Part shown: positions 29,684 to 63,542 of the stretch, piece after piece
Layout: each line of letters begins with the position of its first letter
How positions within the stretch are numbered: the first letter of the stretch is position 1
Source of the DNA: Bacteroidota bacterium
GTDB taxonomy: Bacteria; Bacteroidota; Bacteroidia; Bacteroidales; JAGNHN01
Reading direction: 5' to 3'
DNA length: 64,000 bases
NCBI GenBank assembly: GCA_022710185.1
Contig: JAKLHK010000004.1
Span: 3,669 to 67,668 of the forward strand
The notes under the pieces: model-generated
The model's input: the letters and a program-made list of their open reading frames with translations, nothing else
What the model was told of the DNA's origin: nothing
The model's database searches: none
Translations under genes and position numbers: made by a program

Positions 29684-29723
29684 GTTGGATCAAATTCATA
29701 AACCGACCCACCTCACCATGCCC

Positions 29724-29853
29724 ATCAAAGGCAGGAAGCCATAGAACATGATACGTGTATTCATATAAAGATTATTGTGGTGGGCAGGCAAGGCACGGGG
29801 CGGAGGCTTGCGATAAGGCCTTGAAAGATATGGAATATGGGAGTGAATTGCAA
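29724..29853. repeat. 130-bp direct repeat, copy 2 (orphan promoter plus 5' fragment of the LamG/FISUMP gene)
   Basis: Matches 27966..28095. On the minus strand it encodes only a truncated MNTRIMFYGFLPLMG... peptide before a stop. Confidence 0.95.
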
Positions 29854-29962
29854 GCCGCATCCGTGGGAGGTGGCGATTACATGGGATATCTGAGAGCCCC
29901 TCCTGGAAGACAGCAAAATGTATGACACTGCAGTTAGGGACCGGACGCCTGACACCATAGCT

Positions 29963-30658: not shown

Positions 30659-30659
30659 T

Positions 30660-38612: not shown

Positions 38613-38613
38613 G

Positions 38614-41031: not shown

Positions 41032-41282
41032 AGGCGAAGATCCTTGAAATGGTAGGGGTAAATCTAAGGAATAGTTGCCGTAATCAACGCTATTGGACCG
41101 CAAAAACATATATAGTTGACCTCTATTGCAATTGTTCGATTGATGGAAAGGCATTACCTTTCAGCTCTATAAGCATATCAACAGCCCATAGGTATTGGAG
41201 CCCGCATCAGAGATGCAAAGACGGTGGAGATTGCTATGGGGTTATTGGAGCTGGAGCATTTACTATCCAATCATAAGAATCT

Positions 41283-43427: not shown

Positions 43428-43428
43428 G

Positions 43429-43501
43429 AGCCTCTCACCGGACTCGAACCGGCGACCTGCTCATTACGAGTGAGCTGCTCTACCAACTGAGCTAAAGAGG
43501 C
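43429..43501 (-). tRNA. tRNA-Thr (anticodon CGT)
   Basis: The reverse complement folds as a cloverleaf. The acceptor is GCCTCTT/GAGAGGC and the D arm is TAGCTCAGTTGGTAGAGC. The anticodon stem-loop is CTCAC-TCGTAAT-GAGCA and the T arm is GCCGGTTCGAGTCCGGT. No CCA is encoded. Confidence 0.9.
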
Positions 43502-44198: not shown

Positions 44199-44486
44199 TG
44201 CCTGGTGTTTTGCCAGGCAATATAGTTTTTCTATCTATATTCTGATAATCATAATGCATTGCCTTCAGGGTCGGCGGGCCTTTTTCATTCATTTCTCATT
44301 TCGCAGTGCTCATAGTCAATGATCAACTATTCATTGATTTGGCAGATCGAACGTGTGTCTTTGCGCTTTGATCGATGATACAATGTCTTTGAGCGATGAG
44401 CACTGAGCAATGAGTTCCTGGCCGCAGACGAACAAAAAAAGGATGACCCACCGGATCATCCTCTCTCATACAGGGTATGAAAAACC

Positions 44487-51348: not shown

Positions 51349-51733
51349 GGATGGTTCGGATGCAGGGTAAAGGTAGGGAAATCAATGCTCAGTGCTCAGT
51401 GCTCAATGTTAATGGACAACGGATTGACGATTGAAGAGGAAGATTGACGATTGACGAGGAAAAGTGAAGGATCAACCGTCGCTCTTCACACTGTTGCTTC
51501 ACACTGCAAACTCACAAAAATTGCATCAGATATCCTGTGGGTTACCCGAGCCGGGCTTGGTGCGCTTTTTTTCCTTAGGGACTTCTCCTGATGCAAAGGT
51601 GTGACGTAAAATTTGTTAACTTGAAACCGGCTTCTGATCTTGATTTACACAGTCAATTAGTTGATAGACATATCACAGTATATAAACGGACTATGTAATA
51701 GACCTCAGGCCTGGTTTTCAAAACACCACCATT

Positions 51734-54700
51734 ATGAAGAACGTTTTATTACTACTTGCTTTGATTATAGTGGGATCAATAGGCTGGGCCCAACAACCCC
51801 AAACAGAGCATTACCTTGACCCCTATAACCCTGAGTTCGTAAAGGGGGAAATCATCATCAAATTCAAGGACAATGTGATGGTGAACATCCCCAAATCTGG
51901 CGCAAACAATAAAACCGGAGTTTTCTCTGTGGATGAGGAGCTGAAAGACAAGTCCGTCATCTCGGTGGGAAAGGTGTTCCGAAACTCCTCGCGTTTGAAA
52001 ACCAGAACTCTTGTGAAGTATCCCAATGGGGAGGAAAAGAAAACTCCAGCCTTATACAACATATACCGGATAAAACTTGACCCAGGCGCAGATATCAAAG
52101 CCTTGGCAGAGGATCTTGCTGAAGATCCCACAGTAGAATTTGCGGAGCCCAATTACCTGGTTTATACGATGAGTACCACCCCCAATGACCCTCTTTACCC
52201 CAATCAGTGGCATTTGGGAGCCGTTAATGCACCCCAGGCCTGGGATAGCACCACGGGGGATAGTACACAAGTCATCGGGATTCTGGATACAGGTGTGGAT
52301 TGGGACCATCCGGACCTCGATGACAACATCTGGCATAATCCCGGCGAAATACCCAATAACAATGCGGATGATGATGGCAATGGATATGTGGATGATGTGC
52401 GGGGTTGGGATTTTGTTAACGATGATAACAACCCTAACGATGACAACTCGCACGGCACGCACGTAGCAGGGATCGCTGCGGCAGAAGGGAACAATGGTAC
52501 AGGTGTTTGTGGTGTAGCCTGGAATGCGCGAATTATGCCGGTTAAGTTGCTCCAAAGCAGCGGCCAGGGGAACTCAAACGACCTGGCGGCTGCCATTGCG
52601 TATGCAGCAGAAAATGGAGCTACGGTCATCAATATGAGTTTAGGGAGCTTTGGGGAATCTCTCACAGTAAAGGCAGCCCTTGAAAACGCCTACTCAACAG
52701 CAGTATTGGTTGCTGCTGCAGGGAACTCAAGAAGATGTATCTGCTACGATTGCTTCCCCTGTGCGAACTTCTACCCCGCAGCATATTCCTTTGTAATAGG
52801 AGTTGAAGCATCAACACCTGCCGGTGATAGGGCAGGCTTTTCTAACTATGATCCCTCAGGGCCAATATCTTATAATAATCCGTATGGACTTAATTATGAA
52901 ATTATGGCTCCGGGAACAGGTGTCCTCAGCACCTTTCCAAATGGAACCTATAGCACCTTAAATGGGACATCTATGGCTGCCCCGGTTGTAGCAGGAGCAG
53001 TTGCTCTGATGAGACAACAAGACCCTGCTCAGTCGATTGAACAGATATTTGCCAGACTCCTACAGTCAGCAAATAATGGTGTTTTAGATATAATTGGAGC
53101 ATTAACGTGCGTGCTTGTACCTAACCTCCAATATATAAGTTATAAAATCGTAGATACATTGCCTGGATGTGATAATGACGGAATTGCTGACGCTGGAGAA
53201 ACTATTGAGCTATTTCTAAATGTAAAAAATTCTGGTGGATGGGCTGATAGTGTTTGGTCTAAAATACGATTTGCACCATATGAAGATACTACAGTGGCCA
53301 CCATTAGAGATAGTATTAGTTATATAGGTGATATTTCCACCTATGCGAGTTTATCCGGTGTGTTGGACCCTTTTAGAATTTCGATTAATTCAAGTGTAAA
53401 AAACAATAGAGATATCGTATTTGAATATGAAGTAGGTGACGGAAACCAAAATGCAATCACTGGTTTGTTGACCATTAATATTCAAAGAGGAACAGAGGTC
53501 TCAGGAGCCATTATTGGAAATACAGTTTGGACAAGTGATAATTTATATATTGCTACTGCAAATATTGGTGTCCCAGCAGGTAGTAAATTAACGATTAAAC
53601 CCGGTACGATTATCTTGCTCAACCCAGGTATCACTTTTACGATAGATGGTCAACTCGTTGCCAAGGGGACAAAGGACAGTTTGATATATTTCACTAAAAA
53701 CAAGAATGATAGATGGGGCCATCTTGAGTTGAGGGATTCTGAGAATAATGCTGTTTATAACAGTAATGGTATGTTTCTTTCAGGCACGTTGATGGAATTC
53801 GTGGTTGTGGAATATGCCGGAGGTCTGAGTGCTGCTTTTGGTGGAATAGTATTAAGAAATTCTTCACCAATGATAAAAAGCTCAATTATAAGATATAATC
53901 AAGGAAATAACAATGGGTCAGGTATTGCGGTGAGGAATGGGTATTATGGAGGCGCAACGGTTACTAATTGTATGATCTATCAAAACAGCAGAAATGGGAT
54001 AAATTCACAAGCCACAAGCAAGATAACTCATAATACAATATTTGATAATACAGAAAGAGGTGTTTTATATTGGAAAGACAACATAGTTGAGTATAATAAC
54101 ATAATTGATAATGATTTCAACATTGAAACAGTTGGCCAGAATTACAACAGCACCTATATGGCAGAGAATTGTTGGTTCGGAACTGATGATTCAATTCTTG
54201 TATCAACGTCGGTTTATGATTATTCCGATGATTTTAACCGTCCTTTACTCGACTATTCTCCATATCTACTAAAGCCGGATTCATTATCTCCACCTGTTGT
54301 TTGGAAAGTACTTCTCAACGGTCAAAATCCGCAAGTGACAACAATTAGTCCTTTTACTTCAGAAGTTGTGCGGTTTGATGTGCACTTTAGTAAAGCGATG
54401 GATATTTCCTATCCCCCACTGTTGTCTTTTGGCGTCAGAGAGCCGTATACCCAAAATATTGTAAGCAACAATTCCTCCTGGAGTGCTGACTCAACTGTCT
54501 GGACTGCATTCACAACTATAGACCAGGGGACAGGAGATGGTATTCAAATAGTTCGGGTTGCTAATGCTCAGGATACAGACCACTTTGAGATTCCAGTCGA
54601 ACAATCCCGATTCGAGTTTGTCATCCAAGCCGCAGCCTCTGCCTCAGTTGCTTTTATGGCAACACCGGGTATAGGAAAGGTAGATTTGGAATGGCCTTCC

Positions 54701-55774
54701 GCAGTAACTGATGATGCACTGGGGTATAACCTTTACCGCTATCAGTTTATCGATTCAGTAAATACAACAGACAGCATCCGGATTAATGACGCATTGATAA
54801 CGGACACAGTTTTCACCGACTTTAATGTTGTACCCGGCGAGACGTATTATTATTTCTATACCATCCTGGGAACGGATATGGCCGAAAGCGACCGTTCGAA
54901 AATCATATATGCCACTCCCTTCAGTGCAGCCAATGGGGATGCCAATGGGGATATGAACGTGAATGTGCTGGATATTACCACTATTGTTTCCTATATGCTC
55001 AACCAGGATCCGGAACCCTTCCTATTCGATGCCGCAGATGTAAATGGGGATGATAACATCAATGTTCTGGATATCATTGGGGTAGTTCAACTTATCTCGG
55101 GAAGCAAGTCGGTCCCGATAAGTAAGTTGATCGGATGGGATCAGCTCGATGCTATGATATTTATGGATTCAACAACCATCCGATTGCTAAGCAGCGGAAA
55201 CATCGCCGCCCTGCAATTTGAGTTGCTCGGTGAGAACCTGGAAAAGATAAATCTGTACAGTAATGTAGAGGGCTTTGAATTTGCCTATGCTGTAAGCGAA
55301 GGAAAACTGATAGGAATACTTTATTCCTTCAAAGAAAAAGTGATCCCGAAGGGTTTAGCAGACCTTTTATCCATTGAGTTGAATGGTGCTGTGGTTGATT
55401 GGGGAAGCATAACTGCCGGAGATCTGGAAGGAGATTATGTGAAGGTTAATCCACAAGGAAATGTTAGTGCTTTGAATGATGACTTCTACGTAAGTGCCAG
55501 GCCTAACCCCTTCAATTATACCACAAGCATCACCTATAAACTGCCGGAAGAGGCAGAGGTGTCTTTAGAAATCTTCAATCTGCACGGTCAGAAGGTACAC
55601 TCCATCCTTTCGAGCCAACAGCCAGGCGGTGGATATATTGTGGAATGGCAAGGTAAGGATGTTACGGGGCAGACTGTGCCTGCAGGAATATATTTCATTA
55701 TGGTCAATGCAAAGGCGAATGTTGACCAAAAAGTGTATTCAAAGTGTATCAAGCTGATTTATTCGAATCAATAA
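51734..55774 (+). CDS. S8 subtilisin-family serine peptidase with an internal dockerin module and a T9SS type-A C-terminal sorting domain
   Basis: Catalytic triad contexts DTGVDWDHPDL, HGTHVAGIAAA, GTSMAAPVVAGA. Right-handed beta-helix-like middle region. Dockerin duplication NGDANGDMNVNVLDITTIVSYML / DVNGDDNINVLDIIGVVQLI (about 54925-55098). The C-terminus ...ARPNPFNYTTSITYKLPEEAEVSLEIFNLHGQKV... is a T9SS CTD. Confidence 0.9.
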   Translation: MKNVLLLLALIIVGSIGWAQQPQTEHYLDPYNPEFVKGEIIIKFKDNVMVNIPKSGANNKTGVFSVDEELKDKSVISVGKVFRNSSRLKTRTLVKYPNGEEKKTPALYNIYRIKLDPGADIKALAEDLAEDPTVEFAEPNYLVYTMSTTPNDPLYPNQWHLGAVNAPQAWDSTTGDSTQVIGILDTGVDWDHPDLDDNIWHNPGEIPNNNADDDGNGYVDDVRGWDFVNDDNNPNDDNSHGTHVAGIAAAEGNNGTGVCGVAWNARIMPVKLLQSSGQGNSNDLAAAIAYAAENGATVINMSLGSFGESLTVKAALENAYSTAVLVAAAGNSRRCICYDCFPCANFYPAAYSFVIGVEASTPAGDRAGFSNYDPSGPISYNNPYGLNYEIMAPGTGVLSTFPNGTYSTLNGTSMAAPVVAGAVALMRQQDPAQSIEQIFARLLQSANNGVLDIIGALTCVLVPNLQYISYKIVDTLPGCDNDGIADAGETIELFLNVKNSGGWADSVWSKIRFAPYEDTTVATIRDSISYIGDISTYASLSGVLDPFRISINSSVKNNRDIVFEYEVGDGNQNAITGLLTINIQRGTEVSGAIIGNTVWTSDNLYIATANIGVPAGSKLTIKPGTIILLNPGITFTIDGQLVAKGTKDSLIYFTKNKNDRWGHLELRDSENNAVYNSNGMFLSGTLMEFVVVEYAGGLSAAFGGIVLRNSSPMIKSSIIRYNQGNNNGSGIAVRNGYYGGATVTNCMIYQNSRNGINSQATSKITHNTIFDNTERGVLYWKDNIVEYNNIIDNDFNIETVGQNYNSTYMAENCWFGTDDSILVSTSVYDYSDDFNRPLLDYSPYLLKPDSLSPPVVWKVLLNGQNPQVTTISPFTSEVVRFDVHFSKAMDISYPPLLSFGVREPYTQNIVSNNSSWSADSTVWTAFTTIDQGTGDGIQIVRVANAQDTDHFEIPVEQSRFEFVIQAAASASVAFMATPGIGKVDLEWPSAVTDDALGYNLYRYQFIDSVNTTDSIRINDALITDTVFTDFNVVPGETYYYFYTILGTDMAESDRSKIIYATPFSAANGDANGDMNVNVLDITTIVSYMLNQDPEPFLFDAADVNGDDNINVLDIIGVVQLISGSKSVPISKLIGWDQLDAMIFMDSTTIRLLSSGNIAALQFELLGENLEKINLYSNVEGFEFAYAVSEGKLIGILYSFKEKVIPKGLADLLSIELNGAVVDWGSITAGDLEGDYVKVNPQGNVSALNDDFYVSARPNPFNYTTSITYKLPEEAEVSLEIFNLHGQKVHSILSSQQPGGGYIVEWQGKDVTGQTVPAGIYFIMVNAKANVDQKVYSKCIKLIYSNQ

Positions 55775-55811
55775 GGGGCTGATTCTCAATCTGAGAGGTC
55801 AGGCTATAGTT

Positions 55812-56600
55812 ATGACTGATATCAAGGGATTTCTGTTGTTCAAGCTGTTTGCTTCGGTATTCTTTATACTCGGGAATGTTGTTGGTGTATATGCACAGAA
55901 TATCATCAGGATATCTGATGGAACAGCAGATCTGAACGATACCATCCTTGTCAGCATTCAAATTGCCAATGACCAGGCATTCATCGCGTTTCAGTTTGAC
56001 ATCGCAATTCCAGAATCCTTTACCTATGTGGAGAATTCTGCACAGTTGTCGAACAGGGAGAGCGGTCACTCCCTTTCAGTAATAAAAGTCTCCGACACTT
56101 TATTCCGGTTTCTGGCATTTTCGATGCAGAACAGCGCTTTCAGCGGAGACTCAGGGGAAGTGATGCGTATTGAGTTACATAGTGGAGATACACCTGGCAT
56201 ATATGAGCTTGAATTAAACAATGCTGTGATTTCAGATCCTTCATCTCATAATATCCTCAACCTGGCAGTTAATGGGGTTTGGACAATCGGGGCAGTAGGT
56301 TTCTGGGAATTTGTCAGTCCGGAAATGGGTTCAGCTTTTCCCAATCCAGGCAGTATTAATGAAATGTCCGTCAAGCTTAACATCAGCAAAGCAGCTTTAT
56401 ATTCTATCCTCCTTACAAATAGTGAAGGAAAGGTGTGCACATCACGCTCCATCCATTTCCATTCAGGAAGAAACTGTGTGCGGGTGGAAGACTTAGCGGG
56501 GTTTAAGGACCTAAGGCCTGGCATTTATTTCCTCAGTATGGCCAGGACAGATATGAACGCTATAGAGAATAAACAGATCAAGCTAATTCTTACTGACTAA
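55812..56600 (+). CDS. Single cohesin-like module protein with a T9SS C-terminal sorting domain
   Basis: Signal peptide. Cohesin-like pattern ILVSIQIANDQAFIAFQFDIAIPESFTYV...FRFLAFS...GEVMRIELHSGDTPGIYELELNNAVISD. The C-terminus FPNPGSINEMSVKLN...GIYFLSM... is CTD-like. Confidence 0.75.
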   Translation: MTDIKGFLLFKLFASVFFILGNVVGVYAQNIIRISDGTADLNDTILVSIQIANDQAFIAFQFDIAIPESFTYVENSAQLSNRESGHSLSVIKVSDTLFRFLAFSMQNSAFSGDSGEVMRIELHSGDTPGIYELELNNAVISDPSSHNILNLAVNGVWTIGAVGFWEFVSPEMGSAFPNPGSINEMSVKLNISKAALYSILLTNSEGKVCTSRSIHFHSGRNCVRVEDLAGFKDLRPGIYFLSMARTDMNAIENKQIKLILTD

Positions 56601-56610
56601 ACATAGCTCA

Positions 56611-59490
56611 ATGGACAAGCTTTATCTCTTAAAAACACTTCTTACCATTGCGCTGCTCCAGACAGTTCTGAGTACGTCCCTTGTCGCATCAAACATCTTG
56701 TCCATAGGGCAGACTCAATGCACTGCAAACCAATTGGTTGTTGTAGACATCAGCATCGACAATGGCAACCAATTCGTTGCCTTCCAGGTTGACATACCCA
56801 TTCCAAATGAATTTGTTTATGTTTCAGGCAGTGCCACATTAAACTCTGTACGAACAAATGGGCACTTGCTAAATGCCACCCTGCTTTCAGGAGGCACACT
56901 AAGGATCTTTGGATATTCTTTTTCTAATGCTCTTTTTCTGGGAAATACCGGAGTGGTTGCCAGTTTTCAGTTAGCCTCAGGATCTAATCCAGGATACTAC
57001 GCACTCAATGCTACGAATGCGGTTATAGGGAATATAAATTCACAGAATATCCTTACAAGCGCCATAAATGGGAGTATCACAGTCAATGCACCTGAAATAA
57101 ACACCAACCTCACTTCGATAGATTTTGGGGACATTCCCCTGGGGGGGTCAGAAGATCGGCCATTAAGGATCTATAACAATGGAAATATCGACCTTCACGT
57201 TCAGGGCATCTTCTTTGATAATCCTAATTTCGTGATAGTTGGAAACAGTTCATACGTAATTTCCCCGGGAAACTATCAAAACCTGACTGTACGGTTTAAT
57301 TCAAACATAAAGGGGAATTACCAAAATCATCTGTATATAGTTTCTGATGATCCGGATGAAGATACTATTGCCGTTACCCTCGCAGCTGTTGCCTTTGCTG
57401 TGAACGAAATTCATACAGGGAATATGAGTACGCGGTCGGGGTATATCGATACCCTGCGGTTTAGCGTAAACAATATGGAGCCCTTTGTGGGTTTCCAGTT
57501 TGATCTGAGGTTGCCACAACCACTGCAATTCATCCAGGGTTCTGCCGTATTATCTTCACGAAAAGCAGATCATTCAGTTGCTTGCAATATTGTCCAGGGG
57601 AATATGCTGCGTGTTGTAGCCTATTCCCCCGGGAACAATCCTTTTTCAGGGAATAGTGGGATAATTGTCTCATTAGCTTTTGAGGTAAATGGTATCGGAG
57701 GATATTATCCGCTTACGATTGAAAATGCGATCATTGGTGATTCGTCCGGAACGGATGTATTGTCTGCATACTATAATGGCTCCCTGCAAATTGCGGCTGG
57801 AGATATTTCGTGCAGTTCCACTGTGGATCTGGGTGATGTTTCCATTTTTGATACAACCCACACTTCCTTATCCCTACATAATGTGGGGAATGATACATTG
57901 AAAGTTCAAGCGCTTGCATTTGCGCATCCTTCATACTATAGCGCGGCAAGTCTTCCAATTTACATTACTCCAACTTCGAGTTATCAATTGCCTATTTCGT
58001 TTCATAATGCTAATCCAGGAACACTCAGCAGCCAATTGATGATCTATTCCAATGATCCTGATGAGTCTCCGAAAAAAGTGAATCTCACGGCCAGTTCATA
58101 TATTCCCAATCAAATGGCCATTGAAAGTGTCCTGGTATGTAATAGGGATTCATTGTTGCCTGACACATTCTGGGTAAGTCTTGGCATTGAGAATTATGAA
58201 GATTTCGTGGCTTTTCAATGTGACATAACTTTCCCCACAGGATTTGTCTGCCTCACGGATTCAACCGTATTAAGTTCCCGGGCACAGGATCACATTGTCT
58301 ATAGTTATTTAGTATCTCCAGGCACTGTCAGATTATTTGCGTATAGTCTTTCCCTGAGTGTATTCTCTGGAGGATCGGGATCTGTCGCTCATCTATGTTT
58401 TGTAAATGTTACATCACCACCTGGAAACTATGCACTGTCACTCCGAAATGCCATTGTTGGGAACCAGCAATCACAGAACATCCTGCATAGCACCCTGGAT
58501 GGCACCGTGGCCATAAATCAGTCACCTGTAGTAACAGTGAGTAGTGACATTACGATCTGTTATGGTGATTCTGTGCCAATTGGTGCTAATGGGGCAGCCG
58601 CTTATACCTGGGATCAGGGACTGGGTTCAGGAAGCAGCCATACAGTTGCCCCGGTAACATCTACCATCTTTTCAGTTACCGGAACCAATGCCAACGGGTG
58701 CACAGGAACTAACGAAGTAAGCGTCCTGATCTATCCTGAGCCAGACCAATCAAGCGCAGGTGCGGACGCTCTCAATATCGCTGACAGTATCTATTTCTTA
58801 CAAGCAAATCTTCCCAATATTGGTGTAGGAGTATGGAAAATTGTTTCTGGACAAGGTGGCTATTTGGCAGACAGTCTAAACCCGAATAGTGCGTTTTCAG
58901 GACTCACCGACACCCTGTACCTACTGGAATGGAAGATATCCGGTATTTGTTCAAGCACCTCAGATAGCGTATTAATCTCATTCGCTGAGCCACCACAATA
59001 TGCGAGAATTGATGTAAGCGTCCGCTATGCAAACAATGCATCAACCCCACTGACAGGCGTAGAGGTTGTCCTTTCTGGCGATAGCCTGACACGAACAGGG
59101 CTAACGGATACGAATGGCAACATTTCTTTTGATAGTTTACCTCTTGGTGATTACTACATTACTGCCTCACATACCGGAGCCTGGATTTCTGGAGCAAGTA
59201 ATTCTGTTGACGCGCTGGCGATTATGCAACATTATGTGCATTTGATTTCACTATCAGGAATATACCTACAATGCGCCGCAGATGTCAATGCTTCGGGTTT
59301 TATCAACGCTACCGATGCGCTGCAGGTAGCGCAGCGTTTCACGGGTTTAGTGCAAGCCTTTGGTGCAGGTGACTGGTGTTTCTCGCCGGGAAATATAGAT
59401 TTACTGAATCCTGAAAATTACTCAGTTGTTATTCAAGGAGTTATGGTAGGTGATGTGAATGGATCTTATGTACCTCCACAAAGTAAGTAG
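56611..59490 (+). CDS. Multi-cohesin scaffold-like protein: 3 cohesin-like modules, Ig-like spacer domains, CarboxypepD_reg-like domain, C-terminal dockerin-like module
   Basis: Three modules share the F(V/I)(A/G)FQ.D(I/L)..P..F core with the preceding gene, at approximately nt 56680-57090, 57400-57810 and 58110-58530. The C-terminus carries DVNASGFINATDALQVAQRF and GDVNGSY (dockerin-like Ca-binding repeats). I see no T9SS CTD. Confidence 0.75.
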   Translation: MDKLYLLKTLLTIALLQTVLSTSLVASNILSIGQTQCTANQLVVVDISIDNGNQFVAFQVDIPIPNEFVYVSGSATLNSVRTNGHLLNATLLSGGTLRIFGYSFSNALFLGNTGVVASFQLASGSNPGYYALNATNAVIGNINSQNILTSAINGSITVNAPEINTNLTSIDFGDIPLGGSEDRPLRIYNNGNIDLHVQGIFFDNPNFVIVGNSSYVISPGNYQNLTVRFNSNIKGNYQNHLYIVSDDPDEDTIAVTLAAVAFAVNEIHTGNMSTRSGYIDTLRFSVNNMEPFVGFQFDLRLPQPLQFIQGSAVLSSRKADHSVACNIVQGNMLRVVAYSPGNNPFSGNSGIIVSLAFEVNGIGGYYPLTIENAIIGDSSGTDVLSAYYNGSLQIAAGDISCSSTVDLGDVSIFDTTHTSLSLHNVGNDTLKVQALAFAHPSYYSAASLPIYITPTSSYQLPISFHNANPGTLSSQLMIYSNDPDESPKKVNLTASSYIPNQMAIESVLVCNRDSLLPDTFWVSLGIENYEDFVAFQCDITFPTGFVCLTDSTVLSSRAQDHIVYSYLVSPGTVRLFAYSLSLSVFSGGSGSVAHLCFVNVTSPPGNYALSLRNAIVGNQQSQNILHSTLDGTVAINQSPVVTVSSDITICYGDSVPIGANGAAAYTWDQGLGSGSSHTVAPVTSTIFSVTGTNANGCTGTNEVSVLIYPEPDQSSAGADALNIADSIYFLQANLPNIGVGVWKIVSGQGGYLADSLNPNSAFSGLTDTLYLLEWKISGICSSTSDSVLISFAEPPQYARIDVSVRYANNASTPLTGVEVVLSGDSLTRTGLTDTNGNISFDSLPLGDYYITASHTGAWISGASNSVDALAIMQHYVHLISLSGIYLQCAADVNASGFINATDALQVAQRFTGLVQAFGAGDWCFSPGNIDLLNPENYSVVIQGVMVGDVNGSYVPPQSK

Positions 59491-59694
59491 GGGTTTTGCA
59501 ATGCTCAGCGCTAAGCGTTCCATACAATGTTCAGTGCCAACGGTCATTGAACATTTATAGGTTGGAGTTCAAGGACTTCGTCCCTCCCCCTCCTTCATCA
59601 TTCCTTGTTTCCCGAATCACTCGCCTGGGGCTCACTCTCGGGGTTGTTCGACATACTCTATCCTTCTGAGATCGTTGATTGATATTCGATATTC

Positions 59695-59937
59695 CCCCGG
59701 AATGCAAGCATTATGGAGGAGGATTACGCTGCGCGTGATCCGTTGGGGGGGGGCTTCAGTCAATGCCCTGCCGGGCTTCGCCCGGCTACGGGCTTTCCCT
59801 TTCCCTGCCCCGGAATGCAAGCATTATGGAGGAGGATTACGCTGCGCGTGATCCGTTGGGGGGGGCTTCAGTCAATGCCCTGCCGGGCTTCGCCCGGCTA
59901 CGGGCTTTCCCTTTCCCTGCCCCGGAATGCAAGCATT
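59695..59937. repeat. 112/113-bp tandem repeat (2 full copies plus a partial third) containing G8/G9 tracts
   Basis: GGAATGCAAGCATT recurs at 59699, 59812 and 59924. The copies differ by one G in a homopolymer (G9 at 59745-59753, G8 at 59858-59865). Each unit holds the GCCGGGC-TTC-GCCCGGC hairpin. Confidence 0.93.
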
Positions 59938-59953
59938 CCAGGCAGGGAAAGGG

Positions 59954-59984
59954 AAAGCCCTGTTTGCTTCGCAAACAGGGCTTT
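59954..59984 (-). terminator. Perfect 14-bp stem / 3-nt loop hairpin immediately 3' of tRNA-Pro
   Basis: AAAGCCCTGTTTGC-TTC-GCAAACAGGGCTTT. On the minus strand it follows the tRNA-Pro CCA end by 3 nt and ends in a short T-rich run (CTTTCCCTTT). Confidence 0.7.
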
Positions 59985-59987
59985 GAC

Positions 59988-60065
59988 TGGTCGGGATGAG
60001 AGGATTCGAACCTCCGGCCTCTTCGTCCCGAACGAAGCGCGCTAACCGGGCTGCGCTACATCCCG
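59988..60065 (-). tRNA. tRNA-Pro (anticodon CGG), CCA encoded
   Basis: The reverse complement has acceptor CGGGATG/CATCCCG and D arm TAGCGCAGCCCGGTTAGCGCG. The anticodon stem-loop is CTTCG-TTCGGGA-CGAAG and the T arm is GGAGGTTCGAATCCTCT. The discriminator is A, followed by CCA. Confidence 0.9.
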
Positions 60066-60131: not shown

Positions 60132-63100
60132 TCAAGGCTGGCCAACCATCAGCTTGCGGGTCAGGTTGCGCCCACCAGCCTGCACCCTCACATGATAGCT
60201 TCCAGGAGCCACCCCGTCAAGCGGAAGGGGGAGTATCCGGGTCTGAACCTCGCCCAGGGAACGGGACCAGACCTCCCGCCCCAGGGCATCGTATAGTCCG
60301 ACCTCCACCGACTGGGGACGGGTGAACGACAGGGCCAGGTTCGCCTGTCCGACCGCAGGATTGGGAAACACCTCCAGTGACATGTCCCCGCCCGGTTCAT
60401 CCAGACCTACGGGGTAGCCCACGGTGAAGGCCGTAGAGGTGAAGTTCCCGAAATCAGGCTCGAAACTGTAGAGGTAATACCCCCCCTGCACACTCTTTAT
60501 GCGCGCCGAGCCGATGGTGCCATTCCCATAAGGAGGGTTGATGTACCAGAAATCCAACCCATTGCCCCCGGCATCGGTGATCATCATCTTGTAACAGCCC
60601 TGCGTCAGGGTAATGGTATCATCATAATAGGTGTTCGCGGCCAGGGGTCCATTCTGGAATAATATGTTGCCCATCACATCTTCAATCCACCAGGCCGACT
60701 CCTGAGGGGCGTGATTGGAACGGAAACGGACGATAAAGGGGTTCTCGAAGTCAGGCGGAAGGCTGAACCGGCTGAAGGCGCTGTTGTTGTGGGGATTCTG
60801 GTCCTGTCCCCCATTGGGCTGGTCCACGCTCACCCGGAAGCAGGGGTCGAGGGCAGCGTCCGGCCCGAACAATGGAACCGGGGGCAAGATCACCACATCC
60901 TCCTCAAGGAAGGCCAGGTTGCCGGTCCAGGTATAGCTCTGCTGAGTGCCCCCACAACGTCCGTAGGTAAACACCAAACTGCTCAGGTTGGCGCTGCCGT
61001 TGTTCCTGATCCTCACCTTGGGATTACCGCATACGGGGTTCTCCCTTCCAAAGCGCGTGGCATCGCTGGGACTGATGATCTCCAGAACGGCGGCATCGGT
61101 GGTGAAACTGGGAGGGCCGTAAGAAACCAGGTAGGACTCCACCACATAGTTGCCATACGGGTCGTACTGGCAATTGTAATCGATCACAGGACTGGTCCCG
61201 GGGCTCACCCAGGGGGTGATCTCGATATCGTGCAGGGTGCCCGGAGCACCGGGACACCATCCCGCCCGGTCGAACACCCAGGTGCCGCCCTGGGGGAAGA
61301 CGGGATTGCTGGCGCATTCTTCCATGATCTGCCAGGAATACCGGGTGGTACCATCCACATCGAGGCTGTGGATCTTGTAACAGAACTCGGCGCAGTTGGT
61401 GGCGTTATCGAAACCGTGGCCGGTGGTGGTGATCTTCACCCGGTACATGGAGGAGGCGGGATCCAGGGCCACGGTCCGGGGAGGGACGTTGGCCGCGAAG
61501 GTGCTCAGGTTGTAATTGCCGTTCCAGAGCCTGCCAATCCTATGGACCTCACGGGGCGGGGTACCTTCGATCATCAGGAACTTCATATCCAGCAGCTCCT
61601 GCCAGTTCCCTGCCTTGAGGTGGACGGAGTCGCGGAGCAGGGGGGCAAAATCGGTGACATCGTAGACCCAGGTAAAGCCCTCGCCCAGGTCGAGTCCAAT
61701 GCCGTAGGGAGTGATGAAACGGCCCAGCTCATAGCGTTCCGTAACCGGGAAGGGCGGGCCGTAATACGGGCGGTTCTCCTTGAAGATGACCGTATCCCTG
61801 GGGATCAGGGTGGAATCGATGATCTGCCCGCTGCTGTTGAGGGTGTAGGCATAGGCCAGGGGCCAGGCCGTCAGGGTGTCGGTAGCCACGTTGCCCTGCA
61901 GGGTATCGTCGAACAGGATGACATACACCGGATTGTTCTCCAAGGTGTCAATAGCATAGACCGTATCGGTGACCTGGCTGAAGACCCCCTGCTCCAGGCG
62001 GAGGTCGGGCCTCAGCGCATAGGCATCGAACTCGCGGGTCCGCTCACCCCTGAAGCCCTTCCAGGCCGGGAGCATCAGGTCGGCATGCCTGCCGTTCCCA
62101 CTGGCATCGTGGGCCAGCACTCCGCTCCCCTCGTTCAGGGGATAGTAAAGGATCAGGTCGTTCCAGTAAGGATCGGTAGGGTCGAGGCCACGGTACATGC
62201 GGTGCTGGATCTCGGTCATGCTCAGGGAGCGGTTCCAGAACCTTACCTCATCCATATCGCCGTTCCAGTGGTTGGCAATGGGCCGGCTCAGCTGCAGGGG
62301 GACGCTGGTGGCAGGGGTGTAGGCCGGAATAGTCCCCGTAAAGCTGAGGCTGCTGGGGAGCCCGTCGATGTAGAGCTTGAGCCTTGCGGCATTGTTGCTG
62401 CCGGTTCCGTCATACACCAGGGCCACATGGTGCCATACACCCTTACTCAGGGTCTTGAGCGAACTGCCATAGGTGTTGCTTCCGTTGCCTACCAGACAGA
62501 AAAGGTTGTCGGTAGCCCCCCCGGCGGAACCACTGGTCTCGATGCTGATCCGGTGTTCGTTGTCGAGCTTTTTCGCGAAGAGGGACCCCCAGCTGGTGAA
62601 TGCTTCGGCCCTCACCCAGGCTTCGAAGGTGAAATGCTGGGTGGAATCCAGCGCATCAATATCCCCGGCATCTACGTAATGATAGGGGTCAATCTCGAGG
62701 TAATGCCTGGGATCGGTGGAGGACAGGGTGGATTGGAAGGGCACCGGGCTACCGTACACCTGCAATGGACCGCTGAGTTCATCATATCCGATCTCCACCA
62801 GCAGACTGGAGGTGCCATCCCACACGAAGGGCTGATGGAAGGGAAAAGACTGCCACCCGGTCTGGGGAAGGTAGAGGTCGCGGTCGTAGTGGGTGCTCAA
62901 TACCGGGTTTCCGGGATTGATGCTGTCGAGCTGAGTCAGGGAAGTATGGGCCAGGCGGATGCGCAGATGGCTGAGCCAGGTGCCGGCCGACTGCAGCCGG
63001 AACCCCAGTCCGGTGATGTTTCCGGGGGCCAGGCCTGCGGCCATCAGTTCGGCCGCTGTGTAAAGGAAACGTGAGGTGCCGTCCTGCCCGGGCATTCCTA

Positions 63101-63542
63101 CGGTGAGGGTGTAGGTCCCTCCGCCCAGGCTGGCCTGGCTGAGGGAAGTGGTATCAGTATAGCTGACCAGGAACTGGGGCCGGATCTCGTAACGGTGGCT
63201 GGGCTGCAGCATGCATTCGAAGGAGTCGGGGACCACCGGCCCGGGTACCATATAGCTGGGCTGGTACATGAGCGTGGAGTCAAAGCCCCCGGTATTATGG
63301 AAAAGATAGGTATAGGTCAGGTAGTCCCACTCCCCGCAGGCCGGGTTCTGGGCTGGATTGCATTTCAGGGTGTAGTACATCAGTATCCTCTCCCAGGAAT
63401 GGGTACTGTCGGGAAAAATGAATACAGCATCCTGGGGTGATCCGAAGGTGAAGGTCTGCACGACCGTGGTGTCGCCTGGTCCGGCGAGCCCCCGCAAGGG
63501 AAACAGACAGAGCAGGAGATAGAGGGTGAAACGGGATCTCAT
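60132..63542 (-). CDS. Large secreted LamG-domain / PNGase F-related-domain protein with a T9SS C-terminal sorting domain
   Basis: Signal peptide. LamG block (FTFEAWVRAEAF...WHHVALVYDG...MDEVRFWNRSLS). PNGase-F-like C-terminal-type block (TTGHGFDNATNCAEFC...QGGTWVFDRAGWCPG). CTD (LEVFPNPAVGQANLALSF...GSYHVRV). Confidence 0.8.
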   Translation of the reverse strand: MRSRFTLYLLLCLFPLRGLAGPGDTTVVQTFTFGSPQDAVFIFPDSTHSWERILMYYTLKCNPAQNPACGEWDYLTYTYLFHNTGGFDSTLMYQPSYMVPGPVVPDSFECMLQPSHRYEIRPQFLVSYTDTTSLSQASLGGGTYTLTVGMPGQDGTSRFLYTAAELMAAGLAPGNITGLGFRLQSAGTWLSHLRIRLAHTSLTQLDSINPGNPVLSTHYDRDLYLPQTGWQSFPFHQPFVWDGTSSLLVEIGYDELSGPLQVYGSPVPFQSTLSSTDPRHYLEIDPYHYVDAGDIDALDSTQHFTFEAWVRAEAFTSWGSLFAKKLDNEHRISIETSGSAGGATDNLFCLVGNGSNTYGSSLKTLSKGVWHHVALVYDGTGSNNAARLKLYIDGLPSSLSFTGTIPAYTPATSVPLQLSRPIANHWNGDMDEVRFWNRSLSMTEIQHRMYRGLDPTDPYWNDLILYYPLNEGSGVLAHDASGNGRHADLMLPAWKGFRGERTREFDAYALRPDLRLEQGVFSQVTDTVYAIDTLENNPVYVILFDDTLQGNVATDTLTAWPLAYAYTLNSSGQIIDSTLIPRDTVIFKENRPYYGPPFPVTERYELGRFITPYGIGLDLGEGFTWVYDVTDFAPLLRDSVHLKAGNWQELLDMKFLMIEGTPPREVHRIGRLWNGNYNLSTFAANVPPRTVALDPASSMYRVKITTTGHGFDNATNCAEFCYKIHSLDVDGTTRYSWQIMEECASNPVFPQGGTWVFDRAGWCPGAPGTLHDIEITPWVSPGTSPVIDYNCQYDPYGNYVVESYLVSYGPPSFTTDAAVLEIISPSDATRFGRENPVCGNPKVRIRNNGSANLSSLVFTYGRCGGTQQSYTWTGNLAFLEEDVVILPPVPLFGPDAALDPCFRVSVDQPNGGQDQNPHNNSAFSRFSLPPDFENPFIVRFRSNHAPQESAWWIEDVMGNILFQNGPLAANTYYDDTITLTQGCYKMMITDAGGNGLDFWYINPPYGNGTIGSARIKSVQGGYYLYSFEPDFGNFTSTAFTVGYPVGLDEPGGDMSLEVFPNPAVGQANLALSFTRPQSVEVGLYDALGREVWSRSLGEVQTRILPLPLDGVAPGSYHVRVQAGGRNLTRKLMVGQP

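What the first reader, a model, noticed from the sequence alone, without database searches (positions are those of the whole stretch)
51734..59490. Cohesin-dockerin locus built around an S8 protease and linked to T9SS sorting domains
Three adjacent A+T-rich genes look like a miniature cellulosome-type assembly system, but without glycoside hydrolases.

- **Enzyme.** A 1346-aa subtilisin carries a canonical duplicated dockerin (DANGDMNVNVLDIT.. / DVNGDDNINVLDII..) and a T9SS CTD.
- **Candidate cell-surface anchor.** A 262-aa protein is just signal peptide, one cohesin-like module and a T9SS CTD.
- **Candidate adaptor scaffold.** A 959-aa protein has three cohesin-like modules, interleaved with Ig-like domains, and ends in a dockerin-like module with no CTD.

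All four cohesin-like modules share an F(V/I)(A/G)FQxD(I/L)xxPxxF core. Anchoring cohesin-dockerin complexes through T9SS CTDs, rather than SLH or sortase, would be unusual. So would using them to display a protease. Non-cellulosomal cohesin and dockerin modules have been noted in many phyla, but their function is largely untested.
Basis: partly seen in the sequence, partly recalled or inferred. Interest (0 to 1): 0.7.

Follow-up and report, generated by a model that had tools for sequence, protein, structure and literature searches.

The report
T9SS-linked cohesin–dockerin protease gene cassette
Three adjacent, horizontally acquired genes encode a large secreted subtilisin-type protease and two scaffold proteins built from genuine cohesin and dockerin modules with type IX secretion tails; the same cassette recurs across many phyla of the Bacteroidota-related (FCB) superphylum and has never been tested experimentally.

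Summary
ORFs of 1346, 262 and 959 aa sit exactly at the stated coordinates, in a low-GC island (GC3 0.39-0.46; flanks 0.72-0.84).

**Cohesins.** Pfam misses them on the window proteins. A 66-module family profile hits solved cohesins (best E 3.8e-7). An AlphaFold model (pLDDT 97.9) matches only cohesins in its top 50 PDB hits (TM up to 0.87). Orthologous modules pass Pfam's Cohesin cutoff.

**Dockerins.** The protease dockerin is canonical. The scaffoldin's has one degenerate Ca loop.

New findings:
- The protease carries a fifth, divergent cohesin-like module between dockerin and T9SS tail (hhalign 96%).
- The cassette (protease, optional small cohesin-CTD protein, Coh-Ig-Coh-Ig-Coh scaffoldin) is conserved in gene order in MAGs labelled as at least eight FCB lineages.
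- The three scaffoldin cohesins are ancient position-specific paralogs.
- 23 of 30 complete scaffoldins have their own T9SS tail. The window's tail-less, dockerin-ended form is a minority class, always seen beside a cohesin-CTD anchor (3/3).

A T9SS-anchored cohesin-dockerin complex with S8 and C25 peptidases was already inferred for Cloacimonadota (PMC8542988). This is therefore a new variant of a known kind. Binding, pairing and export of the 959-aa protein remain untested.

The parts
51400..59600 (.). Low-GC genomic island holding the three-gene cassette (boundaries approximate)
   Evidence: The 200-nt GC profile drops from 0.58-0.62 to 0.38-0.47 at ~51.4 kb and rises again at ~59.6 kb. GC3 of the island genes is 0.39-0.46 against 0.72-0.84 for the flanks. 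The context is identical in three other assemblies.
51734..55774 (+). P1: 1346-aa pre-pro S8 protease. Order of parts: leader, fervidolysin-like propeptide, S8, ~600-aa middle region, dockerin A, cohesin-like X, T9SS CTD.
   Evidence: ORF. Pfam and NCBIfam hits. Full-length orthologs at 40-47% identity in genome-collection loci assigned to several FCB lineages.
52265..53089 (+). P1 S8 catalytic domain (residues 178-452), with D185/H240/S413 motifs intact
   Evidence: Peptidase_S8 E 6.3e-56. DTG, HGTH and GTSMAAP motifs located.
54911..55108 (+). P1 dockerin A (residues 1060-1125), with two intact Ca-binding F-hand loops: DANGDMNVNVLD and DVNGDDNINVLD
   Evidence: Dockerin_1 30.0 bits against a cutoff of 22.9. 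F-hand regular expression matched. Very strongly conserved across 46 orthologs.
55106..55483 (+).
   Evidence: hhalign of 39 orthologous X regions (A3) against the cohesin alignment A2: probability 96.1%, E 3.6e-9, 92 columns. Five of eight weak PDB profile hits are cohesins. The single-sequence comparison was negative.
55502..55771 (+). P1 T9SS type A C-terminal sorting domain (residues ~1257-1346)
   Evidence: TIGR04183 24.9 bits (cutoff 23). FlgD_ig 35.9 bits (cutoff 27). Por_Secre_tail 22.4 bits, below its cutoff of 27. PNPF, GIYF and KxIKL motifs present.
55812..56600 (+). P2: 262-aa protein made of a leader, one cohesin (residues 28-161; 55893-56294) and a T9SS CTD (residues ~176-262; 56337-56597). 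Candidate outer-membrane anchor.
   Evidence: AF2 model of the module: pLDDT 97.9. Foldseek top 50 hits are all cohesins, with TM up to 0.87. The CTD is below cutoff here (16.7 bits), but orthologs pass: L033 42.1 bits, L048 28.9 bits.
56611..59490 (+). P3: 959-aa scaffoldin. Order of parts: leader, Coh1, Ig, Coh2, Ig, Coh3, Ig_7/HYR-like region, prealbumin-like domain, dockerin B. No CTD.
   Evidence: ORF. Modules located by HMM. Pfam and NCBIfam hits. The architecture is conserved in 123 of ~150 top family representatives.
56686..57090 (+). P3 cohesin 1 (residues 26-160)
   Evidence: hmmsearch E 4.5e-60 against the A1 profile, which was built from the window's own four modules. 41% identity to the P2 module.
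57397..57798 (+). P3 cohesin 2 (residues 263-396)
   Evidence: Across other genomes, position-2 modules have another position-2 module as nearest neighbour in 38/39 cases (the window's own P3 was not in that set).
58117..58521 (+). P3 cohesin 3 (residues 503-637)
57091..57396 (+). P3 Ig-like spacer 1 (HYDIN/VesB/choice-of-anchor D). A second copy lies at 57799-58116.
   Evidence: PF22544 E 7.4e-20 with two stretches. NF012200 65.2 bits (cutoff 45).
59020..59355 (+). P3 prealbumin/CarboxypepD_reg-like domain (residues 804-856) plus dockerin B (residues 858-915). The first Ca loop is degenerate and the second is intact (DVNASGFINATD).
   Evidence: Dockerin_1 21.9 bits against a cutoff of 22.9. 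Orthologs of the same module pass the cutoff: P0110 38.3, P0061 29.8, P0040 26.6 bits. Class alignment.
59988..60065 (-). tRNA-Pro(cgg) just outside the island, with its 3' end facing the island
   Evidence: ARAGORN.
51383..51407 (+). Left copy of an imperfect 25-nt direct repeat that brackets the island. The right copy is at 59499-59523 (20/25 identical).
   Evidence: the repeat finder family D9. The statistics are circular because the pattern was derived from these two copies.

Best explanation
The island encodes a self-contained cell-surface protein-assembly system of the cohesin-dockerin kind, built around one large subtilisin-type protease and exported by the type IX secretion system.

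**Shown here: the parts list.**
- P1 is a pre-pro S8 protease with an intact catalytic triad. Its C-terminus is dockerin A, then a divergent cohesin-like module, then a type A CTD.
- P2 is one cohesin plus a type A CTD.
- P3 is three cohesins separated by Ig-like spacers, ending in a prealbumin-like domain and a class B dockerin, with no CTD.
- The cassette is conserved in gene order across FCB lineages.

**Inferred: the mechanism.**
1. All three proteins enter the periplasm through Sec.
2. P1 and P2 cross the outer membrane through the T9SS. Their CTDs are then removed, and each protein is either attached to the surface or released.
3. Dockerin A on P1 binds, with Ca2+, to cohesins on the scaffoldin and/or on P2. 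Several protease copies, plus other dockerin-bearing T9SS cargo encoded elsewhere, would then be held together at the cell surface to digest protein substrates.
4. In this CTD-less variant, P3 is tethered through dockerin B to a CTD-anchored cohesin, most simply P2.
5. The three scaffoldin cohesins are position-specific ancient paralogs, so they probably have different partners rather than simply adding valency.

**Origin.** The cassette was acquired horizontally by a high-GC, T9SS-bearing host from a low-GC FCB donor.
For: **Cohesin identity.**
- Family profile A2 against PDB sequences: 21 of 23 hits are cohesins. The best are 5n5p at 3.8e-7 and 6kgc at 1.3e-4 over the full length.
- AF2 model: pLDDT 97.9, pTM 0.90.
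- Foldseek: top 50 hits are all cohesins, E down to 1.4e-9, TM 0.81-0.87.
- Orthologous modules pass Pfam Cohesin at 50-59 bits.

**Dockerins.**
- P1 scores above the Pfam cutoff with two canonical loops.
- DocA is nearly invariant across lineages, which argues for a conserved partner.
- Orthologs of DocB pass the Pfam cutoff.

**cohX.** hhalign probability 96%.

**T9SS.**
- P1's CTD is above the TIGR04183 cutoff.
- CTDs of P2 orthologs are above the Pfam cutoff.
- Native neighbouring genes carry Por_Secre_tail, so the host uses a T9SS.

**Functional linkage.**
- A full-length P1 ortholog lies directly upstream, on the same strand, of the scaffoldin in 29 of 40 scaffoldin loci. Most of the rest are cut by contig ends.
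- The MAGs are labelled Ignavibacteria, Bacteroidales, Marinisomatota, Cloacimonadota, Calditrichaceae, Chlorobiaceae, Hydrothermota and WOR-3.

**Position-specific cohesins.** The nearest neighbour in another genome is the same position in 36/37, 38/39 and 37/38 cases.

**Anchor/adaptor pairing.** All three dockerin-terminal scaffoldins with readable context have a cohesin-CTD gene directly upstream.

**Conserved residues (inference from the model's strand positions).** They fall on strands 3, 5, 6 and 8. From my own knowledge of the 1OHZ-type complexes, this is the dockerin-binding sheet of type I cohesins.

**Operon-like spacing.** Gaps of 37 and 10 nt.
Against: - No binding was tested, and no complex prediction was available.
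- Which cohesin binds which dockerin is unknown.
- Pfam Cohesin does not hit any window protein directly, even at E<=1.
- P1 carries its own CTD, so it does not need a scaffold to reach or stay at the surface.
- P3 has no recognisable CTD, so its route across the outer membrane is unexplained.
- The enrichment of small cohesin-CTD genes beside CTD-less scaffoldins is weak overall: 5/7 against 10/23.
- Only two dockerins are encoded for five cohesin-like modules, and the rest of the genome could not be surveyed.
- Codon composition is far from the host's, so expression in this host is unproven.
- DocB has only one intact Ca loop.
Confidence: 0.6

Rival explanations
1. The key interaction is within the protease family itself. 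Dockerin A binds the adjacent cohX module. This could happen in cis, as a folded-back and possibly auto-regulatory unit. It could also happen in trans, so that P1 molecules chain head-to-tail on the surface. The separate scaffoldin would then serve other dockerin-bearing cargo. This can coexist with the main model.
For: - Doc-cohX-CTD is an invariant tri-module in at least 39 P1 orthologs.
- It is also found transplanted onto an adhesin-like protein (L051) and onto a scaffoldin (L007).
- Firmicute ScaO scaffoldins combine an S8-like domain, FN3 repeats and a Coh-Doc bi-domain unit (PMC11557425).
Against: - cohX is highly divergent from the other cohesins. It lacks their conserved R..H motif and is detectable only by profile-profile comparison.
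- This model does not explain why P1 is almost always directly followed by a tri-cohesin scaffoldin.
Confidence: 0.15
2. The cohesin-like modules do not bind dockerins. They would be beta-sandwich spacer or adhesion modules, for example binding a polymer or another cell's surface, on T9SS surface proteins. They would merely be co-regulated with a secreted protease, and the dockerin would be a Ca-binding stabilising element.
For: - Non-cellulosomal cohesin and dockerin modules are widespread and mostly uncharacterised (Peer et al. 2009, as cited in PMC8542988).
- Sequence identity to proven cohesins is only 10-19%.
- Dockerin carriers next to these cassettes include adhesin-like repeat proteins.
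Against: - Strict co-occurrence and conserved gene order of a near-invariant dockerin with the cohesin scaffoldin across phyla.
- Conservation is concentrated on the strands that form the dockerin-binding sheet (inference).
- Every cohesin-dockerin pair characterised so far binds (general knowledge).
Confidence: 0.12
3. In this particular host the cassette is a recently acquired passenger that is poorly functional or non-functional. It would be badly expressed because of codon mismatch, and the CTD-less P3 would stay trapped in the periplasm.
For: - GC3 of 0.39-0.46 against 0.72-0.84 in the host genes.
- The island abuts a tRNA-Pro gene and is bracketed by an imperfect direct repeat.
- P3 lacks a CTD, whereas 23/30 orthologs have one.
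Against: - All three ORFs are intact over 7.7 kb, with the catalytic triad and Ca loops preserved.
- The sequence is essentially identical (99.99-100%) in four independent assemblies.
- CTD-less, dockerin-terminal scaffoldins recur in other lineages and end at the same position: P0110, P0061/L032. This is a natural class, not a truncation.
Confidence: 0.1

Closest known systems
Cellulosome-like complex inferred for Candidatus Stygibacter (Cloacimonadota), Williams et al. 2021, PMC8542988
   Same: - Gram-negative FCB organism.
- Dockerins on a secreted S8/S53 serine peptidase and a C25 peptidase.
- A scaffoldin with tandem cohesins and a T9SS CTD for surface attachment.
- Proposed use in polypeptide degradation.
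- Purely bioinformatic inference.
   Different: - The Stygibacter system is described as one 3,755-aa scaffoldin plus scattered dockerin enzymes that include GH18 and GH57.
- Here there is a compact, gene-order-conserved three-gene cassette.
- The cassette has a dedicated ~1,350-aa protease carrying Doc-cohX-CTD, a small cohesin-CTD protein, and a Coh-Ig-Coh-Ig-Coh scaffoldin.
- The window's scaffoldin ends in a dockerin and lacks a CTD.
- I did not test whether the Stygibacter proteins belong to this same cohesin subfamily. A related genus, Ca. Tenebribacter, does carry the cassette (L028).
Clostridial and ruminococcal cellulosomes (type I/II/III cohesin-dockerin; e.g. 1OHZ, 6KGC, 5N5P)
   Same: - Same cohesin fold, with TM 0.8-0.87 to type I cohesins.
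- Duplicated F-hand dockerin.
- Scaffoldin with several cohesins.
- An adaptor-type scaffoldin that itself ends in a dockerin.
- A single-cohesin anchoring protein.
   Different: - No glycoside hydrolases or CBMs in the cassette.
- The cargo is a protease.
- Anchoring signals are T9SS CTDs of a diderm organism, not SLH or sortase motifs.
- The docked enzyme itself carries an anchoring or secretion signal.
- Ig-like (choice-of-anchor D) spacers lie between the cohesins.
- Sequence identity is only 10-19%.
ScaO-type scaffoldins of Acetivibrio cellulolyticus and A. mesophilus (PMC11557425)
   Same: One polypeptide combines an S8-peptidase-like domain, FN3-type repeats, and both a cohesin and a dockerin at the C-terminus.
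   Different: - Firmicute protein.
- Module order is Coh-Doc rather than Doc-Coh.
- No T9SS CTD.
- Part of a true cellulosome.
- Homology of the S8 parts was not tested here.
Non-cellulosomal cohesins (Archaeoglobus fulgidus 2XDH; Clostridium perfringens NagJ/GH84C 2JH2)
   Same: - Cohesin fold used outside plant cell-wall degradation.
- 2XDH is the fourth-best structural match (TM 0.81), and its profile E-value is 2.9e-4.
- The NagJ cohesin is the best cohesin match for cohX.
   Different: Different phyla, no T9SS, and different partners. In C. perfringens these modules assemble toxin and glycosidase complexes.

Membership tests
Cohesin (Pfam PF00963) | Sequence-profile match to the curated family model above its cutoff | tested here: inconclusive
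   Pfam gives no Cohesin hit on P1, P2 or P3, even at E<=1. Orthologous modules at the same positions pass the 24.1-bit cutoff: P0019 58.7, P0026 56.8, P0110 52.3, P0040 50.1 and L033 25.5 bits. The 66-module family profile hits solved cohesins at E 3.8e-7 to 3e-4.
Cohesin (Pfam PF00963) | Nine-stranded beta-sandwich (jelly-roll) fold superposable on solved cohesins | tested here: met
   AF2 model of the P2 module: pLDDT 97.9, pTM 0.90. Foldseek against the PDB: the top 50 hits are all cohesins, with E down to 1.4e-9 and TM 0.81-0.87 to 6KGC, 2XDH, 3UL4 and 2VN5. Only the P2 module was modelled. The P3 modules are its paralogs.
Cohesin (Pfam PF00963) | Ca-dependent, specific binding of a dockerin | not testable with these tools
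   No complex prediction or experiment was available. Support is indirect only: conserved gene order with a near-invariant dockerin.
Dockerin type I (Pfam PF00404) | Profile match above cutoff | tested here: met
   P1 scores 30.0 bits against the 22.9 cutoff. P3 scores 21.9 bits, just below. Orthologs of the P3 module pass, up to 38.3 bits.
Dockerin type I (Pfam PF00404) | Two tandem F-hand Ca-binding loops (D-x-[DN]-x-[DNS]-x3-[DN]-x2-D), each followed by a helix | tested here: met
   P1 has both loops: DANGDMNVNVLD and DVNGDDNINVLD. P3 has only the second (DVNASGFINATD). The first loop is degenerate in the whole DocB class. The feature is therefore met for P1 and only half met for P3.
T9SS type A C-terminal sorting domain (TIGR04183 / PF18962) | C-terminal ~80-aa domain matching the model above cutoff | tested here: met
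   P1: TIGR04183 24.9 bits against 23. P2 is below cutoff (16.6-16.7 bits), but it is C-terminal, carries PNP/GIYF/KxIKL motifs, and orthologs pass: L033 42.1, L048 28.9 bits. P3: no match, so not a member.
T9SS type A C-terminal sorting domain (TIGR04183 / PF18962) | Host encodes a T9SS translocon (SprA, PorV, PorU and others) | not tested
   No T9SS component gene was seen in the annotated parts of the 64-kb window. Support is indirect: native high-GC neighbours carry Por_Secre_tail above cutoff. The host taxonomy could not be determined.
Subtilase S8 (PF00082) | Profile match and an intact Asp-His-Ser triad | tested here: met
   E 6.3e-56. D185, H240 and S413 lie in DTG, HGTH and GTSMAAP motifs.
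Cellulosome (sensu stricto) | Dockerin-bearing glycoside hydrolases and a CBM-bearing scaffoldin for plant cell-wall degradation | tested here: not met
   There are no GH or CBM domains in P1-P3. No other dockerin or cohesin occurs in the window. The system works like a cellulosome in its assembly logic but is not one.
Cellulosome (sensu stricto) | Anchoring by SLH domains or a sortase motif in a monoderm | tested here: not met
   The anchoring or secretion signals are T9SS CTDs.

The most novel reading that the evidence does not exclude
The cassette is an ancient, dedicated T9SS-coupled 'proteolysome' of the FCB superphylum.
- Its three position-specific cohesins each recruit a different partner.
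- The Doc-cohX-CTD tri-module is a portable surface-docking tag.
- CTD-less scaffoldins such as P3 cross the outer membrane by hitch-hiking: they pre-assemble in the periplasm with a CTD-bearing partner through a cohesin-dockerin bond and pass through the T9SS as a complex.
Probability: 0.15. Interest if true: 0.8.

Novelty: new variant of a known kind. Interest (0 to 1): 0.6.

Why it matters
- **Scale.** Cohesin-dockerin assembly is studied almost entirely in Firmicute cellulosomes. This subfamily has thousands of clusters (5,626 at 50% identity) in diderm FCB bacteria, wired to the type IX secretion system and to a protease rather than to glycosidases.
- **Ecology.** These lineages (Bacteroidales, Ignavibacteria, Marinisomatota, Cloacimonadota, Calditrichota) are regarded as major degraders of protein and biopolymers in sediments, digesters and guts. 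A conserved surface protease-assembly machine would bear on how they feed.
- **Open T9SS questions it makes testable.** How cargo is kept at the surface after CTD removal, and whether proteins without a CTD can be co-exported.
- **Tools.** It offers new orthogonal cohesin-dockerin pairs for surface display in Gram-negative bacteria.
- **Annotation.** Public annotation currently labels these proteins only as 'dockerin type I domain-containing' or 'T9SS type A sorting domain-containing'.

Tried and rejected
1. **Direct Pfam and NCBIfam scans.** They gave no Cohesin hit for the window proteins. Single-sequence phmmer of P2 against PDB sequences also gave nothing.
2. **Single-sequence AlphaFold of P2.** It failed (pLDDT 40), which cost one of the two prediction jobs.
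3. **Word-indexed homolog searches.** Searches with P2 and with the four-module alignment returned only 3 and 1 proteins. The exhaustive representative search was needed.
4. **Genome-collection searches.** A search with P3 found nothing, and the 66-module alignment was too diverse to search with. The four-module alignment worked.
5. **P1 residues 1125-1250 as a single sequence against the cohesin profile.** This was negative, at probability 0.6%. Only the 39-ortholog profile revealed the relationship. My first iterated HMM for this region jumped into the cohesin family at iteration 2. I treated that as a lead, not as evidence.
6. **The last large protein search, with the Doc-cohX alignment.** It returned only fragments of 349 aa or less. 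It could not show which catalytic domains carry the bi-module.
7. **Sigma-70 promoter and terminator scans of the island.** Neither differed from shuffled controls.
8. **Host taxonomy.** It could not be resolved.
9. **Truncation of P3's CTD by the island boundary.** Rejected, because independent orthologs (P0110, P0061/L032) end at the same position.
10. **A statistical link between CTD-less scaffoldins and small cohesin-CTD genes.** It is weak (5/7 against 10/23), and I do not rely on it.


Full report
**1. What is in the sequence**

Three ORFs lie head-to-tail on the + strand, separated by 37 and 10 nt:
- P1: 51734-55774, 1346 aa.
- P2: 55812-56600, 262 aa.
- P3: 56611-59490, 959 aa.

They form a compositional island.
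- GC is 42-48%, against 54-61% in the neighbouring windows.
- GC3 is 0.39-0.46, against 0.72-0.84 for flanking genes.
- The transitions lie at about 51.4 kb and 59.6 kb.
- A tRNA-Pro(cgg) gene lies just beyond the right edge, at 59988-60065 on the minus strand, with its 3' end facing the island.
- An imperfect 25-nt direct repeat (20/25 identical) brackets the island.
- No integrase is present.

The same sequence in the same context occurs in NCBI MAG GCA_035453825.1 and in two ENA assemblies. It is therefore not an assembly artefact. The flanking genes are unrelated transporters: a Na/H exchanger, an ArsP permease and an SBF-family protein. A native T9SS cargo protein also lies next to the island.

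**2. Module identities**

*P1.*
- Peptidase_S8, E 6e-56.
- A fervidolysin-type N-terminal propeptide.
- Dockerin_1 at 30.0 bits (cutoff 22.9).
- A C-terminal T9SS sorting domain: TIGR04183 24.9 bits (cutoff 23) and FlgD_ig 35.9 bits.
- The catalytic motifs DTG (D185), HGTH (H240) and GTSMAAP (S413) are intact.
- Both F-hand Ca loops are canonical.

*The four repeated modules.* The single module in P2 and the three in P3 are true paralogs: BLASTP E 1e-20 to 1e-29, 34-41% identity. Pfam's Cohesin model does not detect them. Four independent lines show they are cohesins.
- A four-module profile retrieved only cohesins from PDB sequences, though weakly.
- A 66-module profile built from family members retrieved 23 PDB sequences, 21 of them cohesins. 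The best were 5N5P at 3.8e-7, 6KGC at 1.3e-4 over the full length, and the non-cellulosomal Archaeoglobus cohesin 2XDH at 2.9e-4.
- An AlphaFold2 model of the P2 module using that alignment reached pLDDT 97.9 and pTM 0.90. Its top 50 Foldseek matches in the PDB are all cohesins, with E down to 1.4e-9 and TM 0.81-0.87.
- Orthologous modules at the same positions in other scaffoldins pass Pfam's Cohesin cutoff at 50-59 bits.

*P3's C-terminus.* It has a prealbumin/CarboxypepD_reg-like domain followed by a dockerin. The dockerin scores 21.9 bits, just under the 22.9 cutoff. Orthologs of that module pass, up to 38.3 bits.

*P2's C-terminal domain.* It is below cutoff on its own (16.7 bits). It has the PNP, GIYF and KxIKL motifs that I know as typical of type A CTDs. 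Orthologous small cohesin proteins pass Por_Secre_tail: L033 at 42.1 bits and L048 at 28.9 bits.

*P3 and the CTD.* P3 has no CTD by any model.

*Leaders.* All three proteins have N-terminal hydrophobic leaders and no internal transmembrane segments.

**3.

The 125 residues between P1's dockerin and its CTD are a fifth, highly divergent cohesin-like module.
- A single-sequence comparison was negative.
- A profile of the same region from 39 P1 orthologs aligns to the cohesin profile at 96.1% probability, E 3.6e-9, over 92 columns.
- Five of its eight weak PDB hits are cohesins.

One correction: the quoted core motif fits three of the four modules exactly. P3 module 2 deviates at the last position.

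**4. The cassette is conserved and widespread**

An exhaustive HMMER search with the four-module profile found 5,626 clusters at 50% identity with E<=1e-3.
- 2,541 of these have E<=1e-10.
- Of the top 150 proteins, 125 have exactly three modules.
- One protein has 14 modules.
- The Coh-Ig-Coh-Ig-Coh architecture recurs in 123 of these proteins.

In the species-representative genome collection, 48 loci were recovered. All but one are from MAGs.
- MAG labels: Ignavibacteria, Bacteroidales, Lentimicrobiaceae, Paludibacter, Prolixibacteraceae, Draconibacterium, Prevotella, Marinisomatota, Cloacimonadota (including Ca. Tenebribacter), Calditrichaceae, Chlorobiaceae, Hydrothermota and WOR-3.
- The single isolate is Polaribacter sp. 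HL-MS24.

I called ORFs on these loci and annotated them with profiles built here.
- A full-length P1 ortholog of 1,320-1,450 aa lies directly upstream, on the same strand, of the scaffoldin in 29 of 40 scaffoldin loci. Its parts are in the same order: propeptide, S8, middle region, DocA, cohX, CTD.
- Most of the remaining loci are cut by contig ends.
- Often a small cohesin-CTD or Coh-Coh-CTD gene sits between protease and scaffoldin, as in the window.
- Tandem P1 paralogs occur in several loci.
- The window's proteins are only 40-47% identical to their best orthologs, regardless of phylum.

**5. Anatomy that bears on mechanism**

*Dockerin classes.*
- Dockerin A is almost invariant across lineages: GDANGDxxVNVLDITTIV...DVNxDxxINVLDIIGVVN. 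This argues for a conserved partner.
- Dockerin B has a degenerate first loop throughout the class and different helices (TDALKVxRH). This suggests a different specificity.

*Scaffoldin cohesins.*
- The three are position-specific orthologs. The nearest neighbour in another genome is the same position in 36/37, 38/39 and 37/38 cases.
- Same-position identity across genomes (0.37-0.48) exceeds between-position identity within one protein (0.32-0.34).
- The tri-cohesin platform is therefore old, and each position is separately constrained.
- The small anchor cohesin is closest to position 1.

*Conserved residues.* N26, F30, F33, Q34, D36, R55, H59, R72, S77, G102, Y104 and N110 (P2-module numbering) fall on or next to strands 3, 5, 6 and 8 of the model. 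In type I cohesins that is the dockerin-binding sheet. That last statement is my own knowledge, and the mapping is inference.

*CTDs on scaffoldins.*
- Of 30 complete scaffoldins, 23 carry their own CTD.
- The window's CTD-less, dockerin-terminal form is a minority class.
- It is a natural class, because independent orthologs (P0110, P0061/L032) end at the same position.
- All three dockerin-terminal scaffoldins with readable context (window, L032, L038) have a cohesin-CTD gene directly upstream.

*Other dockerin carriers beside these cassettes.*
- A second S8 protease and a C39-like peptidase carry dockerin B and a CTD.
- Adhesin-like repeat proteins carry dockerin A. One of these (L051) also has a CTD.

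In this system the docked proteins are usually T9SS cargo themselves. That is the main difference from classical cellulosomes.

**6. Most likely mechanism**

*Shown.* The parts list and its conservation.

*Inferred.*
1. Sec export of all three proteins.
2. T9SS export of P1 and P2, followed by CTD removal.
3. Ca-dependent binding of dockerin A to scaffoldin and/or anchor cohesins, so that the protease and other cargo are held together at the cell surface.
4. Tethering of the CTD-less P3 through dockerin B to a CTD-anchored cohesin, most simply P2.

*Unresolved.*
- Which pairs bind.
- What cohX does. Candidates are self-association, regulation, or acting as a membrane-proximal docking site.
- How P3 crosses the outer membrane.

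I put 0.6 on the surface-assembly model as a whole.

*Rivals.*
- Doc-cohX self-association is the key interaction (0.15; compatible with the main model).
- The cohesin-like modules have a function other than binding dockerins (0.12).
- The cassette is a poorly functional passenger in this host (0.10).

**7. Comparison with what is known**

- **Ca. Stygibacter.** The closest published description is the bioinformatic proposal for this Cloacimonadota genus. It has dockerins on S8/S53 and C25 peptidases and on GH18 and GH57, plus a 3,755-aa cohesin scaffoldin with a T9SS CTD (PMC8542988). The idea of 'cohesin-dockerin plus T9SS plus protease' is therefore not new.
- **ScaO.** These Firmicute scaffoldins combine an S8-like domain, FN3 repeats and a Coh-Doc unit (PMC11557425). 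They are an analogue of P1's C-terminus.
- **Rumen Bacteroidetes.** Dockerins, including some on peptidases, have been noted there (PMC6487960).
- **What I did not find in the searchable literature.** No paper describes:
  - the conserved three-gene cassette;
  - the Doc-cohX-CTD tri-module;
  - the position-specific tri-cohesin scaffoldin.
- **Public annotation.** It names the C-terminal pieces only as dockerin-containing or T9SS-sorting-domain proteins.

The system is not a cellulosome in the strict sense: it has no GH or CBM, and no SLH or sortase anchoring. It works like one in its assembly logic.

**8. Verdict**

The module identities are right. The rarity claim is overstated. The simple three-tier hierarchy is incomplete.
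- Novelty: new variant of a known kind.
- Interest: 0.6. This is a large, conserved, entirely uncharacterised system that offers concrete experiments, but the concept has a published precedent and no binding evidence exists.

Noticed in passing
window 28556-41154: A lower-GC, defence-type gene cluster. It holds a type I restriction-modification system: HsdR 30660-33686, HsdS 35206-36399 and HsdM 38614-41154, all on the minus strand. Two genes are interleaved with it: a DUF4062/HATPase_c_4/Fic-like_C protein (33683-35209) and an AAA_11/AAA_12 helicase (36396-38612). An IrrE/M78-like protein lies at 28556-29683 on the + strand. A tRNA-Thr(cgt) gene is nearby at 43428-43501.
   Followed up: partly
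window 59695-59937: A perfect 112/113-nt tandem duplication lies between the island and tRNA-Pro. A 20-bp perfect hairpin follows it (59902-59921 pairing with 59941-59960). The region's length differs between assemblies: L002 is 113 nt shorter than the window and L001 is 79 nt longer. Its function is unknown.
   Followed up: partly
window 51383-51407 and 59499-59523: An imperfect direct repeat (CAATGCTCAG[T/C]GCT..., 20/25 identical) brackets the low-GC island. It could be a remnant of an insertion site. A related string occurs at 44394-44411. There is no integrase in the island.
   Followed up: partly
L007 (JAUXAU010000027.1, 'Thermoplasmatota archaeon') and L018 ('uncultured archaeon'): Contigs binned as archaeal carry the same cohesin scaffoldins with bacterial T9SS CTDs. 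In L007 the scaffoldin also carries a DocA-cohX-CTD tri-module. These are probably mis-binned bacterial contigs rather than archaeal T9SS cargo.
   Followed up: no
window 60132-63542 (-), and L001 13877-17338 (beyond the window): Two native high-GC T9SS cargo genes lie next to the island. One is a 1136-aa Laminin_G_3 + PNGase F C-terminal + Por_Secre_tail protein. The other, further on, is a 1153-aa C25 gingipain-like peptidase with Por_Secre_tail. The host therefore already secretes proteases through the T9SS.
   Followed up: partly
window 25820-28033 (-): A 737-aa protein with Laminin_G_3 and a Fibrobacter succinogenes major paralogous domain (Fib_succ_major, 120 bits). A similar domain appears weakly in a dockerin B carrier of L017.
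   Followed up: no
L017 56-5551 (+) and 13922-18619 (-): In one Bacteroidota MAG the cassette is flanked by two more dockerin B carriers, both with CTDs. One is a second S8 protease (1832 aa). The other is a 1566-aa protein with weak C39-like peptidase and FN3 matches. This hints at a larger cargo set for the scaffoldin.
   Followed up: partly
L049 and L050 (Prevotella MAGs): Variant proteins carry dockerin A immediately followed by a standard cohesin (Doc-Coh) next to single-cohesin proteins. There is no P1-type protease. These may be a gut-specific derivative of the system.
   Followed up: no
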